Shown: positions 1,366 through 63,075, numbered from the stretch's first letter. The stretch: DNA of 64,000 nt from an uncultured Myxococcales bacterium (GCA_964463485.1 CAYXDO010000014.1:34063-98062), one strand, 5' to 3'. Numbers and translations are program-made. Notes: generated by a model from the sequence alone, not told the origin.

Positions 1366-1484
1366 TCGAGATCAACTTCGCCGCGTGAGCCGAGCCGGTC
1401 AACTCGCATTCGCTCGGTCCGAGAGCACATGGCTCACGGGCCGACGACGGTCGCGGACGCAGGAATTGGTGGTATGGAACAGAG

Positions 1485-5191: not shown

Positions 5192-5231
5192 CCCCCGCAA
5201 TCGAGGGCGCCTGCACTGGGTCGGTCGGCCT

Positions 5232-7283
5232 TCAGTCCACGGTGATCGATTTGCTCACGTTCTTCGGGACATCCGGATGTACGCCGTGCCCGCGCAACCC
5301 GAGGGCGTCGAGGTGACTCGCCTTCTTCGTGCTCATCTCGAGCGCGAGCAACTGCAACACGACCGTCGCAGAGAACATGGCCGAGAGAGTGTCTCCGGTC
5401 CGCGGGAGCTCGATGAATTGGGACACGTACCGCGGGTTGTCGGCCGGTGGCTTGGTGGCGGCCTGGCGTAACGCGGCGTCGTCCTCGGCGATGACGATGG
5501 TCTTGGCTCCTCTGATCTTGTGAGTGTTCATTTGGGACACCGTCAAGTCCACATCTCGGACGTTCGGGCCAGTCACGTAAATCAGAGGATAGTCTGCATC
5601 CAAAGTCTCGAGCAAATCAGCACGGCGAGACGGATCGAAGCCAGGGACCGAGGCGTCGAAGAGTCCGTGCAAATTCTCGACCGCACCAGCCTCGACCGCT
5701 CGCGTCACGGCCTCGAAGAGTGCGCGGACTTGGTCGATGCCGTACACCGTACTCTTCCCAAGAATCGTGTTGGGTCCGTGTTTGAACTCGGAGGCTTCGA
5801 AGCCCTCGGTGTGATTGAGCACGACCTCGCGGATCTTGAGCGCACCTTCCTTGGCGATCGCGGCCATCCGAGTGGCCAGGATGTGAAGGCTCGGCGCCAT
5901 GAACAGAGCCGCGGCGGCGCGCTCGATGGCGGGCTTGGTTTCGCGCAGCGTGGTCTCGATGAGCACAGGGAGCCCGGCGAAGCGACGCCTGCGCTCGGAT
6001 AGTCCCAGGGCGATCGCAGCGCGGGTAGCCGGATCGACCGAAGGGTCCTCCGCGCGTTTTTCGGCGACGCGGAGCGCGAGGCCGTAGAAGACGGCCATCT
6101 GATTCAGGAAGCTCTTGGTGGCCGGCACGGCGATCTCGGGGCCGCATCGGAGCGGGATCACGAGCTCACTCTGTTCCTGACCTAGCGTAGAGCTCACGTT
6201 GTTCACGATCCCGACGCGGGTCACTTTCTTCCCTGACGCGGCGACCAAGGTCATCACGTCGACGAGATCCTTGGTCTCTCCGCTCTGCGACACTGCGACG
6301 ACCAGGTCGCCGTCCGCGAGGGTGTCCGCGTACTGACCGCGAAACTCACCGGGGAGCACGGGAAAGATCGGCGCCCTCGCGAGCTCATCGAAGAACAGCG
6401 CGCCGGCCTTGGCCGCGTGAAAGGAGCTCCCGCAAGAGACGACGTAGACATGACGGCCGCTCTGAATCGCGTGGAGGACGAGGTCCGCGAAGGAGCTCGC
6501 GGCTCGTTCGACCTCGAGGAGCTCGTCTTTGGCGAGCACCGCGTCGAACAAGATCAGCGGGACGCGGTCACCGGCGAGGGGCTCGAGCTCCGAAAAGCTC
6601 GGCGCGTCCGTGGACGACAGGGACTCGAGGAGGGGCGCCGTTCGGAGCGCGGTCTTCGTCGCCTCGGGCAACCCATCGAGAATTCCGCGCACGGAGGGCG
6701 CTCCGACGAGCTCCGCGAGCGCCGCGCGAGCGCCCGCTTCGCCCTGCGCGTCGATGAGTGCGTCGACGCGAGGCCGCAGCTCGTCGAGCGTGCGCTCGTC
6801 GAGCGCCGCGGAGAACGTTCTCAGCGCGTCGGACCCGCCAGAGAACGAGGTCACGACGTCACGGACAGTCTTCACCTGCGCATGGATCTCTTGCTCCATG
6901 AAGGTGCGAAAGCCCGGCAACAAGACGGTGTCGCGCGCTCGCAACCTGCTCTTCTTGGGCGATTTCTCGACGCGACCGCCGGCCGCGACACTCCCCTTGG
7001 CTCTGACCGCGTACACTGCCCAAGCCGCGCCGTCGTGCTCGACGAAATCACCCTCCGAAATCGGAACGACCAAGCGAGTTAGTTTGAGCACCGACGACAG
7101 ATCGGAAGAAGCCAGCGTGAAGCTCCGACCTTGCTCATCCTTCCCGAAACCGAAATACAGCGAGGAGCCCAGCTTGATCGCCCAAGAGGCGCGAGAGACG
7201 GGATCGACCACGACCGCCGCGAAAGATCCCTTGAGCATCGCCGCCGCGTCCACGATCGCCGCACGCATCGCCGCGCGCCGATC
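5232..7283 (-). pseudogene. glmS 3'-fragment (aa ~152-835 of the intact copy at 21503-24010). Lacks the N-terminal Ntn-glutamine amidotransferase domain and catalytic Cys1. Read-through N-terminus (to 7445) is non-homologous junk.
   Basis: 100 % nucleotide identity over 2052 bp with 21503-23554 (constant ORF offset of 16271 for all six frames). Identity starts exactly at the stop codon and ends inside the GATase-coding region. Confidence 0.8.
5232..7283. repeat. Left copy of 2052-bp perfect direct repeat (DR-L)
   Basis: Boundaries mapped by hand: 5231 t vs 21502 c (differ), 5232=21503 onward identical, 7283=23554 last identical base, 7284 t vs 23555 c. Confidence 0.9.
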
Positions 7284-7290
7284 TCGCGCC

Positions 7291-7326
7291 TGTTCGAACA
7301 GTGCCGCGCTTGTTCGAACAGTGCCG
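7291..7326. repeat. 16-bp direct microduplication tgttcgaacagtgccg x2 (7291-7306, 7311-7326) immediately outside the DR-L boundary
   Basis: Read directly from the sequence. Absent from the corresponding position after DR-R. Confidence 0.8.
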
Positions 7327-7372
7327 GGCCCCTTGTTCACTTTTCGGGAACAGTCGCCGGGGCCCCTTTTTT
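7323..7372 (+). terminator. Intrinsic-terminator-like GC hairpin (GGGCCCC ... GGGGCCC) followed by TTTTTT
   Basis: 7-bp all-GC stem 7326-7332 / 7359-7365, loop with an internal ttgttc/gaacag pairing, then cTTTTTT 7366-7372. No obvious plus-strand gene ends here, so the role is unclear. Confidence 0.3.
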
Positions 7373-7650
7373 GACTCTTGGTGCGAACCCTTCTGCTTGG
7401 CAGCCAGTGCTTGCACCGAGGATTCGAAGAGCGGAGCCCAGCCACGATCTTGGCTTCGGAGAATCAGTCGACTCACCGTCGGCTCCTCGCCTCCCGTGGG
7501 CAGCGGAGGGAGAGCGTCGTTTCGGACCTTCCTCGTGGTGCAGAGCATAATTAATAAGTAGGAGCATCCCGGTCGAGATCGATCTCGGCGACCCGAGCTC
7601 GGCCCGACTCGATCTCACCAGTGCCCGAGCTCGATCTCAAGCCGACGATA

Positions 7651-7680
7651 TCAGAGTCCGGGACTTGCCCGGACTCAGAG
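7651..7680. promoter_or_regulatory. Near-perfect inverted repeat tcagagtccggg-acttg-cccggactcagag, with an unusual AT-rich patch ataattaataagta at 7547-7560, upstream of the first insert gene
   Basis: Stem gagtccggg / cccggactc with a 5-nt loop. The AT-rich 14-mer is exceptional in this ~66 % GC DNA. Lies 65-200 bp upstream of the 7746 start, which has an AAGGAG-like RBS (gaaggag) 8 nt upstream. Confidence 0.3.
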
Positions 7681-7745
7681 GGCGACGCTACTCATAACGA
7701 GTCGAATTCGACACATTAGTCGAGATCGAAGAAGGAGCACCCGAA

Positions 7746-9149
7746 ATGAACCCGGTCCCAATCGTTGCGTTGGTCGCCCTGATCCACGCTACCTCGCCCT
7801 CCCCCGCTACGTCCCCGCCTTTGATCGCTCGTCAGGAGTTTGACGGGAGTCGCCCGCTCGAAGCCAGAGCTCAGCTTGGTCCGAACCGAGGCCGCCTCGT
7901 GATCTCCGGCGGCCAGCTCGCACAAGTCCTCCCCGGACCCGGCATCCGCGAGCGCTTCTGCTTCGACGCGCTTCCCGGCGATCGGCACGCTGCCCTGCGG
8001 ATGAATCTCGCCAGCGGCGCCGCCGCGGAGTTGTTCATCCAATACGACGATCCGAGCTCTTTCGTCAGCGTCGTCGCTTTCGCGTCCGGCGCCGGTCGAA
8101 TCGTCACGCGCACCGCGGGCGGCGACACGATCGTCGCCAACTTCTCCACGGGCATCGTGCGGAACTTGTGGTCGCGAATGCGAGTCGAGGCCAGTCAGAT
8201 CGACCTCGGTAACTCCGAGATCCTGATCTCGATCGATGGCGCGCCGATCGCTTCCGCGGTGGTTCCGCGAGCGATTGAAGGGTCTGCGGTGTGTTATGGC
8301 GTGCGCGGACAAGCGCGCCTAGCGTGGACCGCGCTTTGGGGCTGTGCTGCGGGTGAGATGTTCACAGAAGCTTCGTGCCAGGCACGCGAAGCCAACAGGT
8401 GCGCCGACGGGGTGACCACGAGCTCCGAGGAGTGCGACGACGGCAACACCTCAGACGGTGACGGTTGCTCCGCTGTCTGCACGGCTGAGTTCTGCGGCGA
8501 CGCGCTCCTCTCCGGCGTCGAAGAGTGCGACGACGGCAACACCTCAGCCGGTGACGGTTGCTCCGCCGTCTGCACGATCGAGTCATGCGGTGACTCGATC
8601 CTCACGGGCACCGAAGAGTGCGACGACGGCAACACCGCAGGCGGTGACGGTTGCTCCTCCCTTTGCAGGATCGAGCCCACTGTCTTGTACTCTCAGCCCT
8701 TTGACGCTCCGAACTTCGTGGAAGGGATCGTGGGCTCGCAGGCGTTGTTCGACGGCGCTTCGTGGCTCGACATGGGCGGCGGATCGCAGCTCTACCACTC
8801 CAACTCGGGCCGACCGAGCTCAGGCTCCATGTCCGTTCGCAAGAGCTTCATCTCTTCGTGGTCCGGAGCCCTCGTCTACTCGATTCCGGCTCCGGCTCGG
8901 TCCGACGAAGTCCTTCGCGTTCGGTTCTGGATTTACAGCGCGCTCGGCTCGTTCGACCTCGGCGTGAACCGTGCCGGTGGTGCCACCGTCACTCGAACGA
9001 TTCCGATGGGCGGTTGGACGCTCGTCGACGCCCAGCTCTTGAGCAGCCTCGACACGAGTGAGGCCTACATTCTGTTGGGCGCCATGCCGCCTGACCCGTC
9101 TGGTTGGAGCGTGAAGGTCGACACGATCATCGTCGAGCTCACCCCGTAG
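7746..9149 (+). CDS. Secreted protein with three myxobacterial cysteine-rich repeats (TIGR02232-like: ECDDGNTxxGDGCSxxCxxExCGD)
   Basis: Three ~20-aa Cys-rich repeats (8390-8690 at DNA level, ~60-bp period). Hydrophobic N-terminus. RBS-like gaaggag upstream of the ATG. Confidence 0.7.
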   Translation: MNPVPIVALVALIHATSPSPATSPPLIARQEFDGSRPLEARAQLGPNRGRLVISGGQLAQVLPGPGIRERFCFDALPGDRHAALRMNLASGAAAELFIQYDDPSSFVSVVAFASGAGRIVTRTAGGDTIVANFSTGIVRNLWSRMRVEASQIDLGNSEILISIDGAPIASAVVPRAIEGSAVCYGVRGQARLAWTALWGCAAGEMFTEASCQAREANRCADGVTTSSEECDDGNTSDGDGCSAVCTAEFCGDALLSGVEECDDGNTSAGDGCSAVCTIESCGDSILTGTEECDDGNTAGGDGCSSLCRIEPTVLYSQPFDAPNFVEGIVGSQALFDGASWLDMGGGSQLYHSNSGRPSSGSMSVRKSFISSWSGALVYSIPAPARSDEVLRVRFWIYSALGSFDLGVNRAGGATVTRTIPMGGWTLVDAQLLSSLDTSEAYILLGAMPPDPSGWSVKVDTIIVELTP

Positions 9150-9653
9150 CCGCCAATCGTCGACACGTAGCCGTCGACGAATCATGCCTTCGGCCGCCCT
9201 GCCGCGGGACTACTCGCGGCGCTGCCAAGGGCTACCCGACTCCGACCTACCCACGTCGACCCCAATCGGGTTCGTTCTCGACGAGCCGACTTCAAACTCA
9301 TCCAGACGTTTGCGTCGAACGCGTTTGTACTCATCAACTCGCACGCCGCATTCTTGCCTCATGAATACTGCCCCCCGCCGCCAAGTCGTCCGAGCGTTAC
9401 ATCGATTGGGCTTCAACGCCACGAAAGGAAACGGAAGCGGCCACACTGTGTTCGTAGACCTCTGCGGTCGAAAAGTCCAAGCGGTCGTTCGCTCGAAGAA
9501 GACTCACCACGTCGAGGCCACGGCGCGGAGCCTGGAGCACTTCGGTGTCTGCACCAGGCGGGAGTTCTTCGAATTGGTGCGGCGATCGTGAAGAATTTGT
9601 CGATCGTGTGGGACTCACGCGGAGGCTCGGCGCACCTTGACTCCGCGCCAGCC

Positions 9654-11165
9654 ATGGCAGAGCCTGCGTCCATGACGGGTGCGGATCTGGCTTGGCAGTC
9701 CACCATGGAGCGAATTCGGGACGTCACGGCGACTCAGAGTCACGTCACCTTTTTCGGAGAGCCCGGAAGTGGCCGCAAATTCGCCGCGACAACCCTCTGC
9801 GCCGAAATTCGGACAACTGACTCGGGCGCCAGCTTTCGATTCCTCGAGTGCCGCGGCCTCGCGGTCCAGGCGGCAACGGAAGCGCTCGCGGCCGGTGGCG
9901 AGCTCGTCGTGCTCGTGTTGGCTCACGCCGACGAGCTGCGCGAAGAGCCCGCGAGCGTGATCCTGTCACGGCTGGGTACGCTCGAGCTGGAGCCGACGGC
10001 CCGGCCGAAACTTCGCGTTGTTGCGACGGTTTCGAAGCTTGATCAGGGCCCCCTCTCGACGCTCGAGACTGTCGAAGTTGCCACGCCGAGCCTGGCCCAG
10101 CGAGAGGATCAGAGCTTCGACACGATCCGCAAGTACTGGCAGCTTTTTGGCGGTCAGGGCTCGAGCCCCTCACTGGCAGAGCTCCGATCGGGCAACTTAC
10201 GCGAGCTGAAGGTTCGGGCACGTCGGAGCCAAGACGCACCGACTCAGAGTCAGGCCGCCCGATCCGAAGGGCTAGATTCGCATCCGGCTACTCCTGCCGA
10301 GCGCTCCGTCGATTTGGAAGTCGCGGCACCGCTACGGGCCCTCCTTACCGGACCTCCTCGAGGGCAGCTACTCACCGATTGGTTCCGCGAAGGCAACCAC
10401 TCGAAAACGCCAATCGGTGTCCTCAACGGTCTCTTTAGGAAAGGCCCAGGCAAAACGGATCATTCGCTGTTGAAGCAATGCGTCGCAGAACAGGCCAAGC
10501 TCATCATGGACCGAAACGGGGGCCTCGATCCGTCACGACCCCTGGACCGACACCTCTTGCTTGGGCAACTGTTCGACAACTGGCCGACGTTTCGTCCTGG
10601 TGCGGACGGAGACATACGTGTTGGTTTCCTCATCTCCGAGGCGAGAGAGAGAAGGGAGGCGCGCGAGCTTTTGGCGCAAATTCCGGAGCTGATGAACGTC
10701 TTTCCTGAGTTGGCCCAACTCTACGGCTTCGTACCAACCGAGGTCGATTCCACAGACTATGATGACCCCGCAAAACTCGCAAAACTGTTGAAGAAGAGCG
10801 TCGACGGACTCGAGAAGATCGGATATCACGTGCATCAGAAGCGCGGCGACGCGGAGTACCCGACCCTCGAACACGACGCACTGTCAGCAATCGGCACAAT
10901 GTTGTCCAAAGGTGGCAACCTAGGCGCCCACTCGAACCTGCTCACAGATCATGAGATGAAAAGCGTCAATTTCGAATCTACTGAAGCCGGCTATCATCTC
11001 GCATGCAGCGAAGGCGAGGGCAAGCCGTGCGTCTTCGTCGTCCGCGCCGACTCGCTACCGGTTGCGAAGAAGTCGATGTTCTGGGTGCCACTCATCGTTC
11101 TCGTTCGAAAGACGGCCTTGCGTCGTGGCTCTATACCGGCCATGGATCAACTCCGCTTGCCATGA
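9654..11165 (+). CDS. Degenerate sigma-54-activator-like AAA+ domain protein (pseudo-bEBP), gene A of the insert operon
   Basis: Residues after MAEPASM align with a bEBP AAA+ core. HVTFFGEPGSGRKF matches VLVTGESGTGKE but with K->R at the Walker A lysine position. LVVLVLAHADEL matches TLFLDEIGDMSL with DE->AH. The GAFTGA loop is absent. VEVATPSLAQREDQSF matches I.lPPLReRxeDI. Listed ORF begins at 9354, but the first ~100 codons look like leader, so 9654 ATG is chosen (uncertain). Stop overlaps gene B start (ATGA at 11162-11165). Confidence 0.6.
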   Translation: MAEPASMTGADLAWQSTMERIRDVTATQSHVTFFGEPGSGRKFAATTLCAEIRTTDSGASFRFLECRGLAVQAATEALAAGGELVVLVLAHADELREEPASVILSRLGTLELEPTARPKLRVVATVSKLDQGPLSTLETVEVATPSLAQREDQSFDTIRKYWQLFGGQGSSPSLAELRSGNLRELKVRARRSQDAPTQSQAARSEGLDSHPATPAERSVDLEVAAPLRALLTGPPRGQLLTDWFREGNHSKTPIGVLNGLFRKGPGKTDHSLLKQCVAEQAKLIMDRNGGLDPSRPLDRHLLLGQLFDNWPTFRPGADGDIRVGFLISEARERREARELLAQIPELMNVFPELAQLYGFVPTEVDSTDYDDPAKLAKLLKKSVDGLEKIGYHVHQKRGDAEYPTLEHDALSAIGTMLSKGGNLGAHSNLLTDHEMKSVNFESTEAGYHLACSEGEGKPCVFVVRADSLPVAKKSMFWVPLIVLVRKTALRRGSIPAMDQLRLP

Positions 11166-14100
11166 CCGAGTCTCTCGAGCGTCAAGGCCTCGGGGGCCGC
11201 TCCGCCGAGGCAAATTGGCTGACTCACAAGCTCGGTCGCGCTCCCATCGTTTGGGTGACTGGCCCACGCGGTATCGGAAAAACGACGATCGTGGAGCTCA
11301 CGCTCCAGGCAGCGACCGGTGCGCACTGGATCTTCCTGGACGCGCGACATTTCACCAGGGCAGACGCGAAGGTCGAGCGTGCCTCGCTCCTCGAGGCGCT
11401 CGCCACGGCTGTACTCACCGAGCTCGAACAGCAAGTACATCTTCCTCCGGCCGCCTGGGCCGCGGACGGTCGTTGGAGGGCCTTCGTCGATCACGCGCTT
11501 CCGTGCCTTGGCAGCGCGACCTGGGTCTTCGCTCTGGACGAGACGGATGTTTGGTCCTCAAACGTTCTCGTCGAGGTTACGGCCGCGCTGCGAGGCGTCG
11601 CCAATCGGCTCCGGTACCCGAGTCGAGCGATGACATGGATTCTGATTCGAGGGGATCGTTGGGGTGAGGATCGGGCGGATCTCCCGCGTATGGCGGATCC
11701 CGTGCTCGAGGTCGGGCCGCTCGACTCGAGCGCGATCGTCGCGGTCTGTGCGAAGCTTGCGGACCAGGGAAAGAATGCGTCTGCCGAGGCTCTCGCACTC
11801 ATCGAGCAACTCACAGCTGGCTATCCGCTCGCCTTGGCCGCACTCGTCGAAGCGCTGAAGACCGTTGAGCCAGATGAATCCGGACAGGAAATCTGGCCGT
11901 ACCCACCTTCGTCTCTCCAACCGTGGGGAGTATGGCGGGCGCTCGAGCGCCTCGAGGCGCAGGCGATGGGTCACGGTTCTGCGTTGTCGAGGGGCGAGAG
12001 CTTCGAACGGATGGAACACGCGCTGCTCCAGGCCGATCCTCCGGCGCGCAAAATGCTTTTGACCGTCGCGACCGTCGAGCAGCTCGAGTGGACGGAGATT
12101 TCGCTCTTGGAGGCGCTCGAACGAGCTTGGCCGGAAGAGCTATGGAACAATCCGGAAAGTGTCTCCCTCTTCGAGTCCACACTCCGAGGACTCGTACGGA
12201 CTCACATGCTGGTGCGCGTCGGCGTCGATGGCGCGCGCCACGTCGTGCCGATGCTCGCGAGATTTTGTCTCGCGCTCGGGACTGCCAAAATTCGGGCCTG
12301 GGAGAGACCGCACCTTCACGAGGTTGACCTCTTGCTCCAAGAGGTCAACACCGCGACGACTGACGAGACGAGGACGGAGTTGCTCCGACGGGCGCTGGAC
12401 GCCGACGATAGTGATCCCCGGGCCCTCCTCGCTCTCGCGAGGATTTGTGCACGTGGTTCGGAGTCGACTCAAGCCGAGTCGTTGGGTGAGGCGCGGCGAC
12501 TCTATTCGCGGGCACTGCGGGTGCTGCCCCAGCGAGCGTCCGAGCGGCGAGGTGTCGAGAGCGAGCTGCTGCACGTGCTCCAGCGGCTCGTCGCAGCGGG
12601 CGCTCCGGAGGATGCGATCGGAGAGTTGGCGAGAGGTGATCCGTATTTTGCGGACGACTCTCGAACGGCGAGAGCGCTGCATTTGTGGCTCGAGCGGCGC
12701 TGGTCCCAGGCGTGGGAGACTCCTCCGCCCAAGGAGATCGACCTCGCCTCATCGCGGCATCGATGGGAACAGCGAGCGGAGGGTCTCTTCGTTACTCTCC
12801 CTGGACATCGAGAGTTCGTCGCCAGAGCCCTTGGGTCGCACCTGGCCACTTGGCCCAGCCCGGATCTCGAGTGGCTGAACGCGCTGCTGGCGATCATGCC
12901 CGATCTTCCGGCTGTCGACCTCGATCGAGCGCCTTCTCCCGTGCTGTGGTCGATGCTCTATTCGGCGTGGAACACTCGAGACCGACTGTTCACGCCGGCT
13001 GCGCATGCACTTTCGTCCAAGGACTGGCTTGCGTTGGTCCGCTGGTGTCCGGGCTCGGGCCCGGCCATCTCGGTGCTGACCCAGTATCTCGCCGAAACTG
13101 TCTCCGCACTGGGAGGGGCCGACGCCCTCGAATTCGGGCCGCTCCTTCTGTGGCTTAGGGAGCGCGACAAACCAATGGGCGACGCGGCCGTTTCCCATGT
13201 GCTCCGCTCGCTCAAGCGCCCTGCCGTCGGGCCTGTGAGTCGAGACGCGGTCCGGGCGTGGCGCGAGCTCGCTCCAGACCTCGAGCTGACCTCCCACGAT
13301 ACCGCCGATCAATTCAAGAAGACCTTCATCTCCGGTTGGCGCCAAATCAGCGAACCCGAGAAGCTGGACGGCGTGGAACATCGGTTGATCGAGCGCGACT
13401 CCGGACCCGAGCCACGTCCGCGAGCCCTCCATCGACTGTTTCCCTCTCAACAAGGGCTTGAGCTCGACTTGGCCGAGGCTTCGTTTGCACGTGAGCAGCG
13501 CCTGCTTGAATGGCTTGGCGACTCGCGAGTGAACGCGGTTCCTCGCCTCCTCGATACCGGCTCGTTGGTCGACGACTCTAACAACAAACTCGGCTTCTAC
13601 TCGGTCGTGTCCGAGCCTGCATCGGAGCGCGAGGCGACCTCGCTGCGCACGCTCATCCGAAGACAAACCTCGAACGGCCGCAGTGTGGCCAGCCTCAGCC
13701 GAAGCTCCTTCTGGCACATGATCGCCTCGCTCTTCGAGGCTTTGAGCCACATGCACCAGAGGGCCGTGTTTCATCGATCCGCGCGGCCCGACTACGTCCG
13801 TGTGAGTCTTCCCGAAGATCCGAAGCGCGAGCCCTGGCGGGTGACCTTGATCGGCATGGAATGGAGCTATTACCTCCGGAACCCAACGGGTATGGGTGCC
13901 TATCCGCGTCGACGCCTGGACTACTCGCTCGCCCCAGAGACTCTTTCAGCTCCGTACGGCGAGACTTTCGGCACCGACCTCTTTTCGATGGGCGTACTCA
14001 TCGCTGAATGCCTCGCGTCCGATCGGCTCGACCTCGGCCCGTTCGCTGAAGGTGAGTACAGCCGCGCAACCCAGATCAGGCACATAGAAGCTTGGCTGAG

Positions 14101-16867: not shown

Positions 16868-18987
16868 CCGAGGAGCGCTCCGAGGACGGTCGACGAACGC
16901 TCTACGCTCGGGGCAGAGTCTATCGTCTGACCCTGTCGGGGCGCGTCCAGGAATCATGGCTGGAACGCGCGATCCTGGCGGCCTGCGCGCAAACCAAACT
17001 CACTCTGTCGGACCTGCTGTCCGCCGCGCGTCTCGACCACCGGGCCCCGAAGAGAGTCCCGCTACCCGAGGGTCTGTTCGTCGACGCCGTGGCGAAGCTG
17101 TTGGAGCGAGGACGACTGTCCGTGAAGCCTTCCGACGGAAGCCTCTGCGTAGGCGGTACGCCGTCCCCGGAGCTCGACGCTGCGAACTCTGTCGACGTCG
17201 AGGTCTGGCGAGACGACGCCACGGGTACCATCTGGCCGCTCGACTCGGTTGGGGCTCCGAGGGTCCGCACGGCGGCATCCAGGGACCAAATCCGAAGGAG
17301 CGGACCGGTGCTCGGCGTCGATCTTATGAGGGCCTCGAGCGCCCGAATCATCGAAGAGCTCCGGCTTCGAATGCCCGGCGCAGTACCCGACGTCGCGTCG
17401 GAGGTACTCGGGCGCCAAATGGCCCAGCAGTTTGAGTTTCTCAAGATCGAGGCCGTCGAACGCGAGGACGGCCGCTTGGCCGTGACCTCGCTCGTTCCGT
17501 GGCGCTTGCGCGCCGCCTGGGCCCGAGTTTCCCTGCCCGGAATCGAGCTTGCCCCACGAGATTCGATCCGCGTCGAAGCGACCCCGGAGCCCCCTAGCTG
17601 GAATCGCTCCTTCGATCGGTGGGTCGCGGCGATCGATAGCAACGAGGAAACCGGTCCCGCTCAGAGCGAGCTGCTGAGTCTTTTGGATCGTCGCCTATAT
17701 CCCCGACTCGTGCGGTCCACCGACATATTCGAGAGTGTACCCTCGACGCGCCACCAGACTTACATGGGAGCCGGCCCGAACTCTGCCGGGCACCTCCGTG
17801 CGCTCATGAAGGAGGTCCCCGCTGGGCTAGCCATCAAAGTGGACTCGACGGAGGCCTTTGTCGCTGTCGATTCCCACACCCTTTTTCTCGGGGGCTCCTT
17901 CAATCCCCAGCACAAAGGAAGCCATAGCTTCAAAGTCATGGGCTGGGTCGCCGTCACCGCCTTTCTGCGGGCCGCAATCGGCGAAGAAGTCGCTATCTCT
18001 TCCGAGCCCGACTCACCGACCGTCTCGCGCCTCCGTAACGCGATCGACGGCGCGGCTCGCTCGATGGACCCCGAGCTCGCGCGCCGTGTACCCATCGAGG
18101 TCGACGTCGGCCACCCGGTCATTTGGCTGAGCACCGACGACGCCGAGTTTCTCGCGGCCTCCATCGAGTGGACGATCATTGCCCTCTCTCCCAAGCTCGA
18201 CCGCCCCCCCGCGTGGATTCGAAATGCCTCCGGCGAGCCTACCGTCGGCCTCTACTGCACCACCCCAACCGAGCCGACGAGCCCACCAGACGTGTGGATC
18301 TCGAACACTGGCGGCTGGGTCTTGGTGGGCTACTGGTCGATCGGATATTTCGGCTGCAGGCAATCGGCCGAGCTCGGCTCCACTCTTCGAGACATGATCG
18401 GTGACTGGGAGCTTCAGGCTCTGGAGACGGATGCGCCAACCGTCGCTCCCAGCCCTCCAAACCACAATCCGTCCCCACTGTCGAAACCTGTCCCGCCGAT
18501 CGGAGCTCCGAAGCCGACGCCGACAAACGAACCCAATCCACCGAATGCGCCCTCTCCCCTGCAATCGGACGTGACGAGTTCGAAGGCACCAGTGGCCAAG
18601 GCACCCGGGGCTCCTTCAGTCGCACCTGGACCTGAAAATATTGTCAGATCGATACTCGCTCAGCTCGGCCAGACGCCCGTCGAAGGGGACTGGCAGCTCG
18701 AGTACGATAGACTCTTCAAAGCCATAGGCAAGCTCGACTTCGTCTCGAAGAACGACCGTGGCGCAAAGCTCTTGGTCGCCCTGCTCGCTGCTCGAGTCAA
18801 CGCGCTCCAAGAAGGTTGGCCAAAGCCCTTGCCCAACCTCATCAAAGCCCTGATCGGGTTCACGAAGAAGACTCAAATTGGACTCATCCATGGACTCAGC
18901 AGGCAACACACGAGTCAATCATGGCTCGAGGAAGCCCACAGCGCTGAGCAGGCGCTGGTCGAGCTCTTCGAGCCCAAGGGGCCTTAG
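16864..18987 (+). CDS. Hypothetical 707-aa protein, gene C of the operon. Globular N-terminal ~480 aa, Pro-rich linker (PSPPNHNPSPLSKPVPPIGAPKPTPTNEPNPPNAPSP), C-terminal ~110-aa helical domain.
   Basis: GTG start at 16864 overlapping the gene B stop (GTGA). Good coding GC3. No recognisable catalytic motif; HxKx4D PLD, PD-(D/E)xK and HNH were looked for and not found. Confidence 0.7.
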   Translation: MTEERSEDGRRTLYARGRVYRLTLSGRVQESWLERAILAACAQTKLTLSDLLSAARLDHRAPKRVPLPEGLFVDAVAKLLERGRLSVKPSDGSLCVGGTPSPELDAANSVDVEVWRDDATGTIWPLDSVGAPRVRTAASRDQIRRSGPVLGVDLMRASSARIIEELRLRMPGAVPDVASEVLGRQMAQQFEFLKIEAVEREDGRLAVTSLVPWRLRAAWARVSLPGIELAPRDSIRVEATPEPPSWNRSFDRWVAAIDSNEETGPAQSELLSLLDRRLYPRLVRSTDIFESVPSTRHQTYMGAGPNSAGHLRALMKEVPAGLAIKVDSTEAFVAVDSHTLFLGGSFNPQHKGSHSFKVMGWVAVTAFLRAAIGEEVAISSEPDSPTVSRLRNAIDGAARSMDPELARRVPIEVDVGHPVIWLSTDDAEFLAASIEWTIIALSPKLDRPPAWIRNASGEPTVGLYCTTPTEPTSPPDVWISNTGGWVLVGYWSIGYFGCRQSAELGSTLRDMIGDWELQALETDAPTVAPSPPNHNPSPLSKPVPPIGAPKPTPTNEPNPPNAPSPLQSDVTSSKAPVAKAPGAPSVAPGPENIVRSILAQLGQTPVEGDWQLEYDRLFKAIGKLDFVSKNDRGAKLLVALLAARVNALQEGWPKPLPNLIKALIGFTKKTQIGLIHGLSRQHTSQSWLEEAHSAEQALVELFEPKGP

Positions 18988-20095
18988 AGGTCGTTTCGTC
19001 GTCGCGATTCCATGCTCACGGATGGATACGCTGATCCCCCGCTCTGGGAATCGCAAGAGGTATCAACAATCTCGCGCGGCTAGTCTAGGGCCCGCATCGC
19101 GCAACTGATTTCGCGGCCGGAGCCCAGATCCTGGGCGCCGGATCGTCGTTGGTGTCATGTCGCGTCGGCGGTCGCGACCGCGTGGGTGATTGCTTCGGTG
19201 CGGACGAGGAGACTGTGGGCGGAGCATTGGTATCTCAAGGTCGTCCTCACGAAGTCGGTGGCCGAGGTCGCCGGCACGCCGGCCGAAGACCTGACACGTT
19301 CTTTGGTCGAACTTGAGATAGGAAGCTCCTGGATTTCGACGAGACCCAGGTGACGAGAGTTCGGGTCTCGGAGGGTGCGACATTTCTCAAGTTCGAAAAG
19401 AACGCGGCCGACGAGTGGGGGGCCACGCTCGCCCACACTAGGCAAGCCCAAAGGCTACAAGCTCGACGGAATCATCGACACGGTTCCGACCGTGCGAGCG
19501 ACTCGATACGACACTAACGATCCGGCCGCGGAGCTTCGACCCGCGACGAAATCAGTGGCACATTACGGGCCCAAGGGATTGCTTGGCACGCTGTTGGTAG
19601 GTCGTTCATGGAAAGTGGTGAACGTGCTGACGTTTGCGATGGTCGAGGGGCGAAGAAGGTAGCCGTGGTGGAGACCTCGGCGGTGGACTCGATCCCCGAC
19701 GAACTCGGGGAGCTACTCGACGGCAAGTGGGAAACCGACTTCCGCGCGTCGCCGAGATCGATCTCGGTGCCAGCCCGAGACCCGCCAATGTCAACTTCGC
19801 AGGCGCCGAGCTTCGGGGACTCGGGGTCGGTCGGGTTGACCGATCTCGACGGAATCTCTATTCATTTTCGACGCCGCCGTTCGTAACGGGACGCGGCCAT
19901 CGCTCCGAGATTAATCTCACTGCAATTCAAGTCATCTCTGACTTCGATCTCGGCTGGTGTAATCTCCGTCGCCGCTATTTACGGGGTGTGTTGGGCTGGG
20001 CTTGAATCGGGCGGCTCGATAAAACGTCGGGCAAGGAGGCCGTCTGTGACAAAAATTGGATTGATAAGCACGCTGGTCGTGCGGGAGGTACACCG

Positions 20096-21097
20096 ATGAT
20101 CGCGAACCACATGATGAAGGAGAAAGTCTCCGCCGAGGGGAGCCTTCGCAGGCTCTTCAGAAACCTCGTGGTGGCAGCGCTGCTGATTGGCGTGGCGTGC
20201 GGTGGTATCGAGCAAGACGGTGACGAGGAGGTCGGTGAGTCCAAGGAGGCCCTCGTGGCGGGTCTCTACTGTGGCGACGGCAGCGCCGGTCGACCCACGC
20301 GCGGCACTCTCTACCGATACAACGGCGCCACGTTCTCCGTGGATCGGGTCTGCGGCGGCGCGGGGACGTGCGGCGTCAACGCTGCCGGCGTGAACGACGC
20401 TTGCGTCACGAACTCATCCGTCCTCGAGAACGCCATCGCCAACGCAGCCCGCAGCGTTCACGGCTCAAACGCTCCGGTGGCGGCTCCGGCGTCGTTGGTG
20501 AGCGCCAACCCGGCGGCTACGTGGCTCACCGACGTGTCCGGTTTGGCGGGAGCGCAGGTCCGCGCGGCGATCTTGGACTACAGCCGCTTCATGGGTTCGG
20601 CGACGAACCAGCCGCCGTCGGCCAGTGTGCGGGCGTCGATGGTCGCTCGCCTCACGAGCTTCAACGCCGTCGACCGAGATGCCGTCGTGAATCGAATCGT
20701 AGCGCGCTACGCTCGCACCGTGCCGACCACTGACCAGCAGACTCTCGATTTCTTGGGAGTTCGGACGCAGTGCAAGGAGTTCGCCGACCGCATGGTGCGC
20801 CTCGGCGGCGGGACGTCGGCGACGTACGCGTCGTACTTGACGAGGAAGGTCAGCCGACACAGCGAGTTCCGACGGGGGCTCGTGGCGGTCAAGGGCACCA
20901 ACGCCCACGCCGGAATCATCACCGCCGTGACGCGGGACGCCACCGGAAACATCACGGGGATCGAGTTGACGGAGACAAATTGGGGCACCGGTTGGAATAG
21001 CCCGATCGGGCAGGTGCCTTGGAGCCGAGTGATCGCGAAGCGAACCCTCACGGTCGCCCAGTTCACCGCGGCGTACTCGGCCACGCGAAACCAATAG
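20096..21097 (+). CDS. Putative lipoprotein/secreted protein of unknown function (possible Cys/His papain-like or NlpC/P60-like fold, speculative)
   Basis: N-terminal LLIGVACGG signal/lipobox-like sequence. AT-richer promoter-like region 19900-20095 with aaggagg RBS upstream. Candidate Cys (TQCKEF) and His (NAHAGIITAV) but no confident family assignment. Confidence 0.55.
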   Translation: MIANHMMKEKVSAEGSLRRLFRNLVVAALLIGVACGGIEQDGDEEVGESKEALVAGLYCGDGSAGRPTRGTLYRYNGATFSVDRVCGGAGTCGVNAAGVNDACVTNSSVLENAIANAARSVHGSNAPVAAPASLVSANPAATWLTDVSGLAGAQVRAAILDYSRFMGSATNQPPSASVRASMVARLTSFNAVDRDAVVNRIVARYARTVPTTDQQTLDFLGVRTQCKEFADRMVRLGGGTSATYASYLTRKVSRHSEFRRGLVAVKGTNAHAGIITAVTRDATGNITGIELTETNWGTGWNSPIGQVPWSRVIAKRTLTVAQFTAAYSATRNQ

Positions 21098-21315
21098 GTC
21101 CTACCTTCGGCCCTCCGGGTCCTCTCCTCTCCTCTCCCGACGAGGCGTCCGAGATCGAACCCATCCGCACCGGCCCCCAGTGGCCGCGATAGTGAAGGTC
21201 ATGATGTGGGGTCAACAACCCGAAGGCGCCGAGCATCGTCCGATCCCGAGTCGTCCGCAAACATGCCCGCTCGGTTCGACAGCACCGTCACCACGAGCTC
21301 CCACCCGCCAGGTCG

Positions 21316-21392
21316 ATGTCGGACTCAAATGTCGGACTCAAATGTCGGACTCAAATGTCGGACTCAGATGTCGGACTCGGATGTCGGACTCC
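21316..21392. repeat. 13-bp tandem repeat atgtcggactcaa x ~6 (last units degenerate: ...cag, ...cgg, ...cc)
   Basis: Read directly from the sequence. Lies ~110 bp downstream (3') of the glmS stop / DR-R boundary, in an intergenic stretch. Confidence 0.85.
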
Positions 21393-21502
21393 AGGGATTA
21401 GTGGTGTACAGACGTACTTTGCGGCGTCGCTCGGCGCCGTGCCGTCGCCATCGTGCCCCCGAGTCGAAGACGCCCGCGCTCTGATGCGGCCCGTGCCGCC
21501 AC

Positions 21503-23554
21503 TCAGTCCACGGTGATCGATTTGCTCACGTTCTTCGGGACATCCGGATGTACGCCGTGCCCGCGCAACCCGAGGGCGTCGAGGTGACTCGCCTTCTTCG
21601 TGCTCATCTCGAGCGCGAGCAACTGCAACACGACCGTCGCAGAGAACATGGCCGAGAGAGTGTCTCCGGTCCGCGGGAGCTCGATGAATTGGGACACGTA
21701 CCGCGGGTTGTCGGCCGGTGGCTTGGTGGCGGCCTGGCGTAACGCGGCGTCGTCCTCGGCGATGACGATGGTCTTGGCTCCTCTGATCTTGTGAGTGTTC
21801 ATTTGGGACACCGTCAAGTCCACATCTCGGACGTTCGGGCCAGTCACGTAAATCAGAGGATAGTCTGCATCCAAAGTCTCGAGCAAATCAGCACGGCGAG
21901 ACGGATCGAAGCCAGGGACCGAGGCGTCGAAGAGTCCGTGCAAATTCTCGACCGCACCAGCCTCGACCGCTCGCGTCACGGCCTCGAAGAGTGCGCGGAC
22001 TTGGTCGATGCCGTACACCGTACTCTTCCCAAGAATCGTGTTGGGTCCGTGTTTGAACTCGGAGGCTTCGAAGCCCTCGGTGTGATTGAGCACGACCTCG
22101 CGGATCTTGAGCGCACCTTCCTTGGCGATCGCGGCCATCCGAGTGGCCAGGATGTGAAGGCTCGGCGCCATGAACAGAGCCGCGGCGGCGCGCTCGATGG
22201 CGGGCTTGGTTTCGCGCAGCGTGGTCTCGATGAGCACAGGGAGCCCGGCGAAGCGACGCCTGCGCTCGGATAGTCCCAGGGCGATCGCAGCGCGGGTAGC
22301 CGGATCGACCGAAGGGTCCTCCGCGCGTTTTTCGGCGACGCGGAGCGCGAGGCCGTAGAAGACGGCCATCTGATTCAGGAAGCTCTTGGTGGCCGGCACG
22401 GCGATCTCGGGGCCGCATCGGAGCGGGATCACGAGCTCACTCTGTTCCTGACCTAGCGTAGAGCTCACGTTGTTCACGATCCCGACGCGGGTCACTTTCT
22501 TCCCTGACGCGGCGACCAAGGTCATCACGTCGACGAGATCCTTGGTCTCTCCGCTCTGCGACACTGCGACGACCAGGTCGCCGTCCGCGAGGGTGTCCGC
22601 GTACTGACCGCGAAACTCACCGGGGAGCACGGGAAAGATCGGCGCCCTCGCGAGCTCATCGAAGAACAGCGCGCCGGCCTTGGCCGCGTGAAAGGAGCTC
22701 CCGCAAGAGACGACGTAGACATGACGGCCGCTCTGAATCGCGTGGAGGACGAGGTCCGCGAAGGAGCTCGCGGCTCGTTCGACCTCGAGGAGCTCGTCTT
22801 TGGCGAGCACCGCGTCGAACAAGATCAGCGGGACGCGGTCACCGGCGAGGGGCTCGAGCTCCGAAAAGCTCGGCGCGTCCGTGGACGACAGGGACTCGAG
22901 GAGGGGCGCCGTTCGGAGCGCGGTCTTCGTCGCCTCGGGCAACCCATCGAGAATTCCGCGCACGGAGGGCGCTCCGACGAGCTCCGCGAGCGCCGCGCGA
23001 GCGCCCGCTTCGCCCTGCGCGTCGATGAGTGCGTCGACGCGAGGCCGCAGCTCGTCGAGCGTGCGCTCGTCGAGCGCCGCGGAGAACGTTCTCAGCGCGT
23101 CGGACCCGCCAGAGAACGAGGTCACGACGTCACGGACAGTCTTCACCTGCGCATGGATCTCTTGCTCCATGAAGGTGCGAAAGCCCGGCAACAAGACGGT
23201 GTCGCGCGCTCGCAACCTGCTCTTCTTGGGCGATTTCTCGACGCGACCGCCGGCCGCGACACTCCCCTTGGCTCTGACCGCGTACACTGCCCAAGCCGCG
23301 CCGTCGTGCTCGACGAAATCACCCTCCGAAATCGGAACGACCAAGCGAGTTAGTTTGAGCACCGACGACAGATCGGAAGAAGCCAGCGTGAAGCTCCGAC
23401 CTTGCTCATCCTTCCCGAAACCGAAATACAGCGAGGAGCCCAGCTTGATCGCCCAAGAGGCGCGAGAGACGGGATCGACCACGACCGCCGCGAAAGATCC
23501 CTTGAGCATCGCCGCCGCGTCCACGATCGCCGCACGCATCGCCGCGCGCCGATC
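21503..23554. repeat. Right copy of 2052-bp perfect direct repeat (DR-R), part of intact glmS
   Basis: See DR-L. Offset 16271 bp. Confidence 0.9.
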
Positions 23555-62730: not shown

Positions 62731-62830
62731 GACCCATTCATGATGGCCTCCTGTTTTGTACTCTGACGGAGCGCGTTTGGAGAAGGGTCATCCGTTCGAC
62801 ATCGAACGGTCACGAAACAGTCACAACCGT

Positions 62831-62914: not shown

Positions 62915-63075
62915 CAGGAGTATCGACCCGAAATGCACGCCGCGTACATGCGAGCCCGTGTGGACTTCGAGACGCCGATCGCGCACTTGTTTCTGGTGGA
63001 TGCCACGGCCCGCTTTCAGAGCATCGAAGGGACCGCGGGCCTGCAATTGTTCGCCCGTCCGAACGGAGCGCGTGG

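What the first reader, a model, noticed from the sequence alone, without database searches (positions are those of the whole stretch)
5232..23554. 14.2-kb insert bracketed by two 100 % identical 2052-bp direct repeats, each the 3' part of glmS. Right copy intact gene, left copy truncated pseudogene.
All six-frame ORFs in 5232-7283 recur at +16271 bp. Identity was mapped by hand to begin exactly at the glmS stop codon and to end inside the amidotransferase domain. The intact glmS (835 aa, MCGVIG start) is at the right. The left copy lacks Cys1 and reads through into junk. Between them lie only accessory-type genes (Cys-rich repeat protein, the A-B-C operon, a lipoprotein). Perfect 2-kb direct repeats are substrates for RecA-mediated deletion, so the whole insert plus one repeat should pop out at appreciable frequency, meaning the locus may be polymorphic in the population. 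glmS is a classic integration hotspot (attTn7), although no Tn7-like or integrase genes are present. A 2-kb perfect repeat is also a classic assembly-error signature and must be verified.
Basis: seen in the sequence. Interest (0 to 1): 0.75.

Follow-up and report, generated by a model that had tools for sequence, protein, structure and literature searches.

The report
Gene-fragment repeats bracketing an accessory island
A 2-kb piece of a GlmS-like sugar-amine synthase gene really does occur twice around a 14-kb block of accessory genes in a myxobacterial metagenome genome. No mobile-element genes are present, and the short-read assembly cannot prove either the perfect identity of the two copies or their order.

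Summary
Window 5232-7283 equals 21503-23554 (2052 bp, 0 mismatches), which is codons 153 to stop of an 835-aa GATase+SIS GlmS-like gene. The right copy is intact and the left copy is truncated.

Independent assemblies confirm three of the four repeat/unique junctions. The source project used MEGAHIT plus short-read scaffolding, which cannot span 2 kb. So the order across the repeat and the "100 %" identity are probably by construction. An integrated island, an empty allele plus a 16,271-bp circle, and a mixed population all fit the data.

The two copies sit at the ends of two conserved gene blocks, and everything between them is lineage-specific. Next to the intact copy lies a degenerate relic of the antiporter's 3' end plus spacer. 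The overall geometry is therefore an insertion with about 2.1 kb of target duplication.

I found no integrase, transposase, terminal inverted repeats or tRNA gene. I favour a recombination origin (a homologous event at the conserved gene end plus one illegitimate joint) and RecA-driven loss or amplification.

The cargo is a rare gene pair: a 1901-aa STAND-MkoA (Mokosh helicase/kinase-like) fusion and a 707-aa partner with no PLD motif. It is a candidate defence system.

Overall this is moderately interesting and of a known kind.

The parts
3002..5191 (+). CPA2 cation:proton antiporter fused to Usp domains (729 aa). It is the last gene of conserved block 1 and converges on the truncated repeat copy.
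   Evidence: Pfam Na_H_Exchanger 1.5e-52 and Usp 1.9e-32. Relatives at 73-74 % aa identity keep the HTH/EIIA - 505-aa - antiporter operon but have different genes downstream.
5148..5231 (+). Flank L: the last ~14 codons of the antiporter plus a 40-nt spacer, ending at the stop codon of the truncated copy. It is homologous at about 75 % to flank R.
   Evidence: Local alignment with 21426-21491 scores 21; only 2 of 2000 dinucleotide shuffles reach that score. Three-way alignment.
5232..7283 (-). Left repeat copy R': codons 153-stop of the GlmS-like gene. It lacks the Cys1 and N-terminal part of the amidotransferase domain. The public record annotates it as a 678-aa SIS protein.
   Evidence: Exact identity, translation, cluster members P0001/P0121. 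The junctions 5231/5232 and 7283/7284 are seen in independent contigs L070, L071, L069 and L076.
7284..7745 (.). Junction region. It holds two 16-nt direct repeats with a TTCGAA palindrome core (7291-7326) and a strong hairpin followed by a T-run on the + strand (about 7326-7376). It also holds a 97-nt inverted relic of gene B (7391-7487) and the 5' region of the Cys-rich gene.
   Evidence: The fold is -46.1 kcal/mol, z = -3.5. The B relic is 81.6 % identical to 14692-14789 on the opposite strand, E = 7e-20.
7746..9149 (+). Secreted Cys-rich acidic repeat protein (467 aa) with myxobacterial-type repeats.
   Evidence: NCBIfam myxo_disulf_rpt 2e-33 and Pfam DUF4215. Three 93-nt coding repeats (family D8).
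9184..11165 (+). orf135 (9184-9591) and gene A (9588-11165, 525 aa, degenerate AAA+/sigma-54-activator-like). Both are translationally coupled to gene B by 4-nt overlaps.
   Evidence: Gene calls on Logan contig L076. Weak Pfam hits only: HicA_toxin 0.019 and Sigma54_activat 0.098. The motifs GEPGSGRK and GNLRELK are visible in the sequence.
11162..16867 (+). Gene B (1901 aa). An N-terminal STAND/AAA_16 NTPase is followed by a kinase-like domain (HRS in place of HRD) and an Upf1-like SF1 helicase. The C-terminal ~1130 residues are a full-length MkoA homologue.
   Evidence: PADLOC MkoA PDLC03920 E = 1.5e-125, covering profile positions 32-1090 of 1112. Pfam AAA_16, Pkinase, AAA_11 and AAA_12. 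Helicase motifs are intact in the sequence.
16864..18987 (+). Gene C (707 aa), the conserved partner of B in the position that MkoB holds in Mokosh type I. It has no HKD/PLD motif.
   Evidence: No Pfam, PADLOC, NCBIfam or PHROG hit. Only 9 representatives among 1.84 billion proteins. B-like and C-like genes are adjacent on L077 and L084. A fusion protein, P0247, exists. hhalign against an MkoB profile matches only 48 N-terminal columns, probability 32 %.
19375..21097 (+). Two small ORFs (95 and 73 aa) and a 333-aa putative lipoprotein (20096-21097).
   Evidence: Gene calls on L076. No family hits. Signal peptide and lipobox-like ...LIGVAC read from the sequence.
21316..21393 (+). Six tandem copies of a 13-nt unit (ATGTCGGACTCAA). 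Logan contigs end inside this array.
21425..21502 (+). Flank R: a degenerate relic of an antiporter/Usp 3' end (RSAPC / AVAIV split by a 2-nt deletion, stop codon region deleted) plus spacer. It abuts the stop codon of the intact gene.
   Evidence: Against the L078 orthologue, 6 of 3000 shuffles reach the score.
21503..23554 (-). Right repeat copy R, the 3' 2052 bp of the intact gene.
   Evidence: The junction 23554/23555 is seen in L074 (141 nt into R) and L075 (30 nt into R).
21503..24010 (-). Intact GlmS-like gene (835 aa): Cys1 Ntn-amidotransferase, a ~220-aa insert, SIS isomerase domains and a ...KSITVD tail. It is the last gene of conserved block 2.
   Evidence: The family is 812-894 aa long across Myxococcota and Acidobacteriota. 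Upstream synteny with L067 is conserved and breaks at the stop codon.

Best explanation
Structure. The locus is an insertion-duplication at the junction of two conserved chromosomal blocks. Block 1 ends with the antiporter and block 2 ends with the GlmS-like gene. Between them lie 14.2 kb of lineage-specific accessory DNA.

That DNA is bracketed by two overlapping fragments of what looks like one former locus, 'antiporter -> <- GlmS-like gene'. The left fragment runs through the antiporter and spacer to codon 153 of the gene. The right fragment runs from the last ~11 antiporter codons through the spacer and the whole gene. The overlap is about 2.13 kb. Its 2052-bp coding part is identical in the record, and its ~80-bp non-coding end has decayed to about 75 % identity.

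Origin (inferred). No transposase or integrase made this. I infer recombination: one homologous event anchored in the highly conserved 3' end of the gene, plus one blunt illegitimate joint at 7283|7284. This could be a circularised fragment integrating Campbell-style, homology-facilitated illegitimate recombination, or a replicative template switch. The coding part was then homogenised, either in the cell by gene conversion from the intact copy or in silico by assembler bubble-merging.

Consequence (inferred from established RecA biology). The two 2-kb direct repeats let the island and one repeat be deleted as a 16,271-bp circle, which would restore a single intact gene next to the antiporter. 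They also allow tandem amplification. The population is therefore probably heterogeneous.

Cargo. The core is a B-C gene pair related to Mokosh type I, so the unit is best seen as a variable defence-type islet.

Shown: the repeat, three junctions, gene content, the two relics, and the absence of mobility genes. Inferred: the integrated order, the mechanism of origin, and excision or amplification.
For: - Exact repeat and boundaries; gene anatomy.
- Junctions 5231/2, 7283/4 and 23554/5 are present in independent assemblies. Sister-MAG contigs stop 141 nt inside R from both outer sides. Logan contigs stop exactly at, or 30 nt inside, the boundaries. This is the behaviour of a true two-context repeat.
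- The unique 14.2 kb is one contig running from 7254 to 21345.
- Synteny of block 2 with the closest relative ends at the stop codon. Antiporter relatives diverge right after the antiporter.
- Relic of the antiporter end plus spacer beside the intact copy. Inverted relic of gene B at the other island end. Both point to repeated rearrangement at this site.
- No recombinase, transposase or phage domains in any island ORF or in the other window ORFs tested. No terminal inverted repeats. No tRNA or Rfam element.
- No microhomology at either junction.
- The island operon has slightly lower GC3 (0.69-0.74) than flanking genes (0.75-0.85).
- The island contig is absent from the sister MAG that holds both flanks.
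- Recombination between direct repeats as a route to amplification or deletion, and HFIR, are established (PMC2530875; PMC6382021).
Against: - The order X1-R-island-R-Y2 is not supported by any read or contig that spans R. The project used MEGAHIT plus IDBA-UD scaffolding of short reads. The same graph fits a single intact gene plus a circle.
- The junction 21502/21503 was not seen in an independent contig.
- Zero differences in 2052 bp beside a 75 % flank is awkward for any single-step model and forces an extra homogenisation step.
- The antiporter relic is short (about 35-65 nt; p about 1e-3) and covers a conserved Usp C-terminal motif. It could therefore derive from another Usp gene.
- A terminator-like hairpin on the + strand just right of the left copy would fit better if the 2052-bp fragment had been inserted between the antiporter and its terminator.
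- No relative shows the proposed ancestral antiporter/GlmS-like adjacency.
Confidence: 0.5

Rival explanations
1. Scaffolding/topology artefact. The chromosome carries one intact gene directly next to the antiporter. The 14.2 kb plus one repeat copy is a separate 16,271-bp circular (or tandemly amplified) molecule, or is present only in a subpopulation. The scaffolder threaded the loop into the chromosome and printed one collapsed repeat contig twice.
For: - MEGAHIT plus IDBA-UD scaffolding of short reads cannot span 2052 bp.
- In the sister MAG both flanking contigs break 141 nt into R, and the island contig was not binned with them.
- Logan contigs break at the boundaries.
- Some Logan contigs run through one boundary without a break. 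This hints at unequal abundance of the alternative junctions.
- One A/G variant in R within the population.
Against: - A free circle needs replication functions, and none is recognisable.
- A non-replicating excision product would not reach assembly-level coverage.
- The circle would still carry a truncated gene fragment and an antiporter relic, so it would itself have to derive from the integrated form.
- The missing branches in Logan contigs are equally explained by low coverage or tip clipping near the 13-nt tandem array.
Confidence: 0.25
2. Ancient duplication kept identical by concerted evolution. The ~2.13-kb target duplication is old, and RecA-dependent gene conversion from the functional gene keeps overwriting the truncated copy. 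Only the short non-coding edge has diverged.
For: - About 75 % identity with indels in the 80-bp edge, against 0 differences in 2052 bp.
- Two decayed relics at the island ends.
- The sharp switch at the stop codon coincides with the end of selective constraint.
Against: - The relic is about as diverged as the orthologue of a relative whose antiporter is only 73 % identical. Yet no relative has this arrangement.
- Edge erosion predicts a gradient of differences inside the repeat ends, and none is seen.
- A useless 2-kb fragment would be expected to be deleted over that time.
Confidence: 0.2
3. Site-specific mobile element: a Tn7-like transposon at an attTn7-like site, or an integrase-driven island that restores the 3' end of its target gene.
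For: - The island abuts the stop codon of a GlmS-family gene.
- The 3'-terminal coding sequence is very conserved, even in the 74 % relative.
- The target gene stays intact.
Against: - No TnsA-E, transposase, tyrosine or serine recombinase or excisionase in any ORF.
- No terminal inverted repeats and no short target duplication.
- The repeat is 2052 bp, about an order of magnitude or more longer than att sites.
- No tRNA gene.
Confidence: 0.03

Closest known systems
Campbell-type insertion-duplication and direct-repeat-bracketed 'amplicons' (RecA-dependent integration, deletion and tandem amplification between long direct repeats, e.g. Hfr formation via shared IS copies, Rhizobium amplicons)
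   Same: Two long, directly oriented, (near-)identical repeats bracket unique DNA. One repeat is a truncated copy of a host gene and the other completes the gene, exactly as after single-crossover integration of a circle that carries an internal or 3' gene fragment. The predicted behaviour is pop-out as a circle, or amplification (PMC2530875; the rest is from my own knowledge).
   Different: The repeat here is a fragment of a housekeeping-type gene, not an IS or rRNA operon. No plasmid or vector functions are present. No variant alleles have been observed directly. The extra ~80-bp diverged part of the duplication is not expected from a simple recent Campbell event.
Homology-facilitated illegitimate recombination (one homologous anchor plus one illegitimate joint) during DNA uptake
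   Same: One end of the novel DNA coincides with the end of a conserved homologous segment (the gene's 3' end). The other end is an illegitimate joint inside the gene (PMC6382021).
   Different: Classical HFIR joints use 3-10 bp of microhomology and usually delete recipient DNA. Here the joint is blunt and the recipient segment is duplicated.
Tn7 insertion at attTn7 downstream of glmS
   Same: Accessory DNA lies immediately downstream of a GlmS-family gene whose conserved C-terminal coding region could act as a landmark.
   Different: There are no Tns genes, no Tn7 ends and no 5-bp duplication. A 2-kb duplication of the gene itself is present. The gene is a divergent 835-aa GlmS-like paralogue family.
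Mokosh type I anti-phage system (MkoA helicase+STK, MkoB PLD nuclease; bioRxiv 10.1101/2022.05.11.491447)
   Same: Gene B contains a full-length MkoA-like kinase-like domain plus Upf1-like helicase (E = 1.5e-125). It is followed, with an overlapping stop/start, by a ~560-700-aa partner, as MkoA is by MkoB.
   Different: B carries an extra ~800-aa STAND NTPase N-terminus. The partner C lacks the HKD/PLD motifs and matches MkoB only weakly, over 48 N-terminal columns. Two further coupled upstream genes are present. No function has been tested.

Membership tests
Tn7-like element at attTn7 | TnsA/B/C plus a target selector (TnsD/E or equivalent) encoded in the element | tested here: not met
   No transposase, Tns or AAA-regulator families of Tn7 were found in any island ORF with Pfam, NCBIfam, PADLOC or PHROGs.
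Tn7-like element at attTn7 | Terminal inverted repeats with repeated transposase-binding sites and a 5-bp target duplication | tested here: not met
   No inverted repeat joins the two island ends. The only long inverted repeat pairs 7392-7465 with 14716-14789, inside gene B. The flanking duplication is 2052 bp.
Integrase-mediated genomic island / prophage | Tyrosine or serine recombinase near one end | tested here: not met
   None was found in the other window ORFs tested either.
Integrase-mediated genomic island / prophage | Short att direct repeats (tens to a few hundred bp) at a tRNA/tmRNA gene or gene 3' end | tested here: not met
   The repeat is 2052 bp. There are no tRNA or tmRNA genes in the window. 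The position at a gene's 3' end is the only shared trait.
Direct-repeat-bracketed amplicon / Campbell insertion-duplication | Two long, directly oriented, near-identical repeats flanking unique DNA | tested here: met
   Three junctions are confirmed in independent contigs.
Direct-repeat-bracketed amplicon / Campbell insertion-duplication | Both repeats on one molecule in the stated order | not testable with these tools
   This needs reads or PCR that span 2 kb. The assembly method cannot show it.
Direct-repeat-bracketed amplicon / Campbell insertion-duplication | Deletion, circle or amplified variants present in the population | tested here: inconclusive
   The island contig is absent from a sister MAG that has both flanks. 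No direct evidence is available.
GlmS (glutamine--fructose-6-phosphate aminotransferase) | N-terminal Cys1 Ntn-amidotransferase domain, SIS isomerase domains and a conserved C-terminal tail | tested here: met
   MCG start, GATase_6/7 and SIS domains. The SQSGET and ...KSITVD motifs were read in the sequence.
GlmS (glutamine--fructose-6-phosphate aminotransferase) | Score above the curated equivalog cut-off (TIGR01135, 418 bits) | tested here: not met
   294 bits, matched in three stretches. The protein belongs to a distinct 812-894-aa family that sources name 'SIS domain-containing protein'.
Mokosh type I | MkoA: COG1112/Upf1-like helicase with a Ser/Thr-kinase-like domain | tested here: met
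   PADLOC PDLC03920 E = 1.5e-125 over nearly the whole profile. Definition.
Mokosh type I | MkoB: PLD-family (HKD) nuclease encoded next to MkoA | tested here: not met
   No HxK(x)4D motif in A, B or C. No PLD hit. Profile-profile comparison gives only 48 N-terminal columns, probability 32 %.
Mokosh type I | Protection against phage | not testable with these tools
   This requires an experiment.

The most novel reading that the evidence does not exclude
The 16.3-kb unit (island plus one repeat) is an integrase-free 'pop-in/pop-out' cassette. It uses 2 kb of a conserved GlmS-like gene as a portable homology arm. It would cycle between an integrated form and a circular form by RecA alone, and could enter any conspecific genome by a single crossover without disrupting the target gene. 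On this reading it carries a previously undescribed Mokosh-related defence type (STAND-MkoA fusion plus a non-PLD partner).
Probability: 0.1. Interest if true: 0.65.

Novelty: new member of a known kind. Interest (0 to 1): 0.38.

Why it matters
If the integrated form is real, this is a clean natural example of an accessory (probably defence) islet held between kilobase-long gene-fragment repeats. Such a structure should be lost, regained and amplified by ordinary homologous recombination without any dedicated mobility enzyme. It would show how defence content can vary within a population of slow-growing environmental myxobacteria.

It is also a cautionary case for MAG users. The perfect identity and the order of the copies are products of the assembly method, and the truncated copy is annotated in the public record as an ordinary 678-aa protein.

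Independently of the repeat, the B-C pair extends the Mokosh helicase family to a rare architecture without the PLD nuclease.

Tried and rejected
1. **Empty site in relatives.** I looked for an antiporter adjacent to the GlmS-like gene.
   - 66 GTDB loci with GlmS-like homologues (identity at most 59 % by tblastn) show no shared neighbours.
   - The closest relative (74 % aa identity) shares only the upstream block.
   - Antiporter relatives have other genes downstream.
   - No ancestral state could be inferred.
2. **The source record.** It is not retrievable by exact protein look-up, so read depth and scaffold structure could not be examined.
4. **Homology of the relative's downstream flank to either window flank.** Not significant. 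The apparent tblastx extension is noise.
5. **Microhomology or target-site duplication at the junctions.** None found.
6. **Composition as a marker of foreign origin.** GC is flat. GC3 of the operon is only mildly lower, and the Cys-rich and lipoprotein genes look native.
7. **Structure of protein C.** The single-sequence AlphaFold model had pLDDT 37 and was unusable. A PDB profile search gave only chance hits.
8. **Random NHEJ capture of a 2052-bp fragment between the antiporter and its terminator.** The hairpin made this attractive. I rejected it as the main model because the fragment would have had to land exactly where flank-L/flank-R homology ends.
9. **Plain tandem duplication.** Rejected because the sequence after the second copy is not a second copy of the island.

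Full report
**1. The observation**

A base-by-base comparison shows that window 5232-7283 and 21503-23554 are identical over exactly 2052 bp at an offset of 16,271 bp. Identity ends abruptly on both sides, and the window contains no N bases. The repeat finder reports the same pair, capped at 300 nt, and ORFs in all frames recur at +16,271.

The right copy is the 3' part of a minus-strand gene, 21503-24010, that encodes 835 aa starting MCGVIG. The repeat covers codon 153 through the stop codon, which is 684 whole codons. The left copy continues upstream as an ORF to 7445, with 54 unrelated residues and no Cys1.

**2. What the gene is**

Pfam finds GATase_6/7 (residues 67-188) and a SIS domain. 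NCBIfam aligns GlmS models in three stretches but below their cut-offs (294 vs 418 bits).

Homologues of 812-894 aa with the same architecture are common in Myxococcota, Acidobacteriota and some other phyla. Sources mostly name them 'SIS domain-containing protein'. The protein keeps Cys1, SQSGET and a GlmS-like ...KSITVD tail. I call it GlmS-like. Whether the genome also holds a canonical glmS cannot be seen from the window.

**3. Provenance and independent assemblies**

The protein collection places both the 835-aa protein and a 678-aa version of the truncated copy on one NCBI contig of 107,182 bp. That record itself could not be fetched. Other assemblies of the same population could be fetched.

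- **Sister MAG GCA_016208175.1.** One contig is 100 % identical to window 1-5372 and ends 141 nt inside the repeat. Another comes from the kinase side and also ends 141 nt inside it.
- **Logan single-run contigs.**
  - One covers 2828-7283 and ends exactly at the inner boundary.
  - One covers 9112-5232 and ends exactly at the outer boundary, with one A/G difference at 5965.
  - One covers 7254-21345, that is the whole unique insert with a 30-nt overlap into the repeat.
  - One comes from the kinase side with a 30-nt overlap.

Three of the four junctions (5231/2, 7283/4, 23554/5) are therefore real in reads from several runs. The break pattern is what a genuine two-context repeat produces in de Bruijn graphs. 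The fourth junction (21502/3) was not seen independently, because contigs stop in a 13-nt tandem array 110 nt away.

**4. What the assembly cannot show**

The accession blocks and run numbers tie these data to the Northern California groundwater project; this link is my inference. That project's methods state MEGAHIT 1.2.9 followed by the IDBA-UD scaffolder on short reads. The 141-nt overhangs match MEGAHIT's largest default k.

Such reads cannot span 2052 bp. The graph has two entries (antiporter side; island right end) and two exits (island left end; gene 5' part). It is equally satisfied by three arrangements:

- (a) the printed order;
- (b) a chromosome with a single intact gene next to the antiporter, plus a 16,271-bp circle or tandem array;
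- (c) a mixture of the two.

MEGAHIT also merges highly similar parallel paths (from my own knowledge of its defaults). The two printed copies most likely come from one collapsed contig. '100 % identical' therefore means 'not distinguishable by the assembler' rather than 'proven identical'.

The island proteins are found only on Logan contigs and the source contig, not in the sister MAG that holds both flanks. This weakly suggests that the island contig had a different coverage, which would mean a heterogeneous population.

**5. Surroundings**

The closest GlmS-like relative (74 % aa, GCA_016183035.1) shares the whole upstream block: kinase, PIG-L, FHA, PilZ, Zn-ribbon and sigma-54 activator. 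Synteny stops at the stop codon. Its downstream genes match nothing in the window, and its downstream DNA is not significantly similar to either flank.

Relatives of the antiporter (73-74 % aa) keep the HTH/EIIA - 505-aa - antiporter operon but differ immediately downstream.

So the two repeat copies sit at the ends of two conserved blocks, and 5192-21502 is lineage-specific.

**6. Scars**

- **(i) Antiporter relic.** The 78 nt between the 13-nt tandem array and the stop codon of the intact gene (21425-21502) align with the antiporter's last codons plus the 40-nt spacer that precedes the truncated copy.
  - The core TCGCTCGGCnCCGTGC..GTnGCCATCGTG encodes RSAPC/AVAIV, split by a 2-nt deletion.
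  - The stop-codon region is deleted.
  - The spacer is about 70 % identical.
  - The score is reached by 2 of 2000 shuffles, and by 6 of 3000 against an orthologue from another organism.
  - The relic is short and covers a conserved Usp motif, so I rate it probable, not certain.
- **(ii) Gene B relic.** At the other island end, 7391-7487 is an inverted copy of part of gene B, 82 % identical and carrying a frameshift (E = 7e-20).
- **(iii) Hairpin.** Directly right of the truncated copy are two 16-nt repeats with a TTCGAA palindrome and a strong hairpin followed by a T-run on the + strand.
- **(iv) Blunt junctions.** Neither junction has microhomology or a short target duplication.

If the relic is accepted, the geometry is: block 1 - antiporter - spacer - R' | 14.1 kb | antiporter relic - spacer' - R - block 2. 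These are two overlapping fragments of one former 'antiporter -> <- gene' locus. In other words, it is an insertion with about 2.13 kb of target duplication, of which only the coding 2052 bp are identical.

**7. No mobility machinery**

All island ORFs, including small and alternative-frame ones, lack integrase, transposase, Tns, relaxase or phage families in Pfam, NCBIfam, PADLOC and PHROGs. The other window ORFs tested are ordinary myxobacterial chromosome genes. There are no terminal inverted repeats, no tRNA or tmRNA genes and no Rfam families.

GC content is flat. The operon's GC3 is slightly low (0.69-0.74 against 0.75-0.85), while the Cys-rich and lipoprotein genes look native.

**8. 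Cargo**

The island carries:

- a Cys-rich myxobacterial repeat protein;
- a four-gene, translationally coupled operon: orf135, A (525 aa), B (1901 aa) and C (707 aa);
- two small ORFs;
- a putative lipoprotein.

B has an N-terminal STAND/AAA_16 NTPase. Its C-terminal ~1130 residues match PADLOC's MkoA profile nearly end to end (E = 1.5e-125). The helicase motifs are intact, and the kinase-like loop reads HRS instead of HRD.

Mokosh type I is defined as MkoA (helicase plus STK) together with a PLD nuclease, MkoB. Plasmid examples show the MkoA-MkoB pair with overlapping genes. Here no PLD is present. C has no HKD motif and no family hit.

C's family is tiny, with 9 representatives among 1.84 billion proteins. 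Even so, B-like and C-like genes are adjacent on two unrelated metagenome contigs. One protein fuses the kinase-like domain, the helicase and the C domain. A profile comparison with MkoB aligns only 48 N-terminal columns, at probability 32 %. The AlphaFold model of C was unusable.

I read B-C as a Mokosh-related candidate defence pair with a different, unknown effector. Its function is untested.

**9. Mechanism**

A plain tandem duplication is excluded, because the sequence after the second copy is not a second island. Site-specific insertion fails its defining tests (section 7).

Random end-joining capture of a gene fragment would explain the blunt ends and the stranded terminator-like hairpin. 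But it would require the fragment to land exactly where flank homology ends.

I therefore favour recombination:

- one homologous event anchored in the gene, whose last ~40 nt are nearly invariant even in the 74 % relative;
- plus one illegitimate joint at 7283|7284.

This could have gone through a circularised fragment that integrated Campbell-style, through homology-facilitated illegitimate recombination, or through a replicative template switch.

The contrast between 0 differences in 2052 bp and about 25 % in the adjacent 80 bp needs a further step. That step could be gene conversion from the intact copy, exchange of the island and its right flank with a diverged lineage, or assembler merging. 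The data do not decide between these.

Whatever the origin, kilobase direct repeats are classical RecA substrates for deletion and amplification (own knowledge). Excision would restore a single intact gene beside an intact antiporter.

**10. Verdict**

- The structure belongs to a known kind (insertion-duplication, or a direct-repeat-bracketed accessory segment), and its linkage remains unverified.
- Its most interesting content is the rare Mokosh-like B-C module.
- Interest is moderate (0.38).

Noticed in passing
window 11162-18987 (also L077:1504-9329, L084:3057-10704): A conserved gene pair. The first gene is a ~1900-2020-aa STAND NTPase + kinase-like + Upf1-like helicase (MkoA homologue). 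It is followed by a ~570-700-aa protein of a very small family (9 representatives in 1.84 billion proteins) with no PLD motif. One protein (P0247, 1746 aa) fuses the kinase-like domain, the helicase and the C-like domain. This may be a Mokosh variant with a new effector.
   Followed up: partly
window 7391-7487 vs 14692-14789: A 97-nt inverted, frameshifted fragment, 82 % identical to an internal part of gene B, lies at the left island end. It looks like a relic of another or earlier B-type gene.
   Followed up: partly
window 21425-21502 vs 5148-5231 and L078:9059-9095: A degenerate copy of the antiporter/Usp 3' end plus spacer lies directly beside the stop codon of the intact GlmS-like gene. 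It mirrors the arrangement at the truncated copy.
   Followed up: yes
window 7285-7376: Two 16-nt direct repeats (TGTTCGAACAGTGCCG, with a palindromic TTCGAA core) are followed by a GC-rich hairpin and a T-run on the + strand (-46 kcal/mol, z = -3.5). No + strand gene lies upstream of it except the antiporter, 2.1 kb away. It could be a stranded terminator or a protein-binding site.
   Followed up: partly
window 21316-21393: Six tandem copies of a 13-nt unit (ATGTCGGACTCAA) sit in the spacer between the lipoprotein gene and the intact GlmS-like gene. Short-read contigs break here.
   Followed up: no
window 5965 (= 22236): Logan contig L069 (run SRR12113405) has G where the window has A in both copies (Val to Ala at residue 435 of the 678-aa truncated product). 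This is either a strain variant or a real difference between the two copies that the assembly hides.
   Followed up: partly
window 21503-24010 and loci L001-L066: The 812-894-aa GlmS-like family, with a ~220-aa insert between the amidotransferase and SIS domains, is widespread in Myxococcota, Acidobacteriota and a few candidate phyla. It scores below the curated GlmS cut-offs, and its role relative to canonical GlmS is unclear.
   Followed up: no
window 13700-14200 (gene B residues ~845-1010): The kinase-like domain of B reads HRSARPDY where active kinases have HRDxKxxN. It may be a pseudokinase.
   Followed up: no
window 35540-36337; 53289-54320; 62816-62927: Long runs of short in-frame coding repeats. 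The first has a 15-nt period with Ala/Glu/Arg-rich units, in a region where a sister-MAG contig annotates a 1393-aa response-regulator/PatA_N protein. The second has 24- and 18-nt periods in a 399-aa ORF. The third is a 14-nt tandem array.
   Followed up: no
window 5232-7445: The public annotation treats the truncated copy as a normal 678-aa SIS-domain protein (cluster representative P0001) rather than as a gene fragment.
   Followed up: yes
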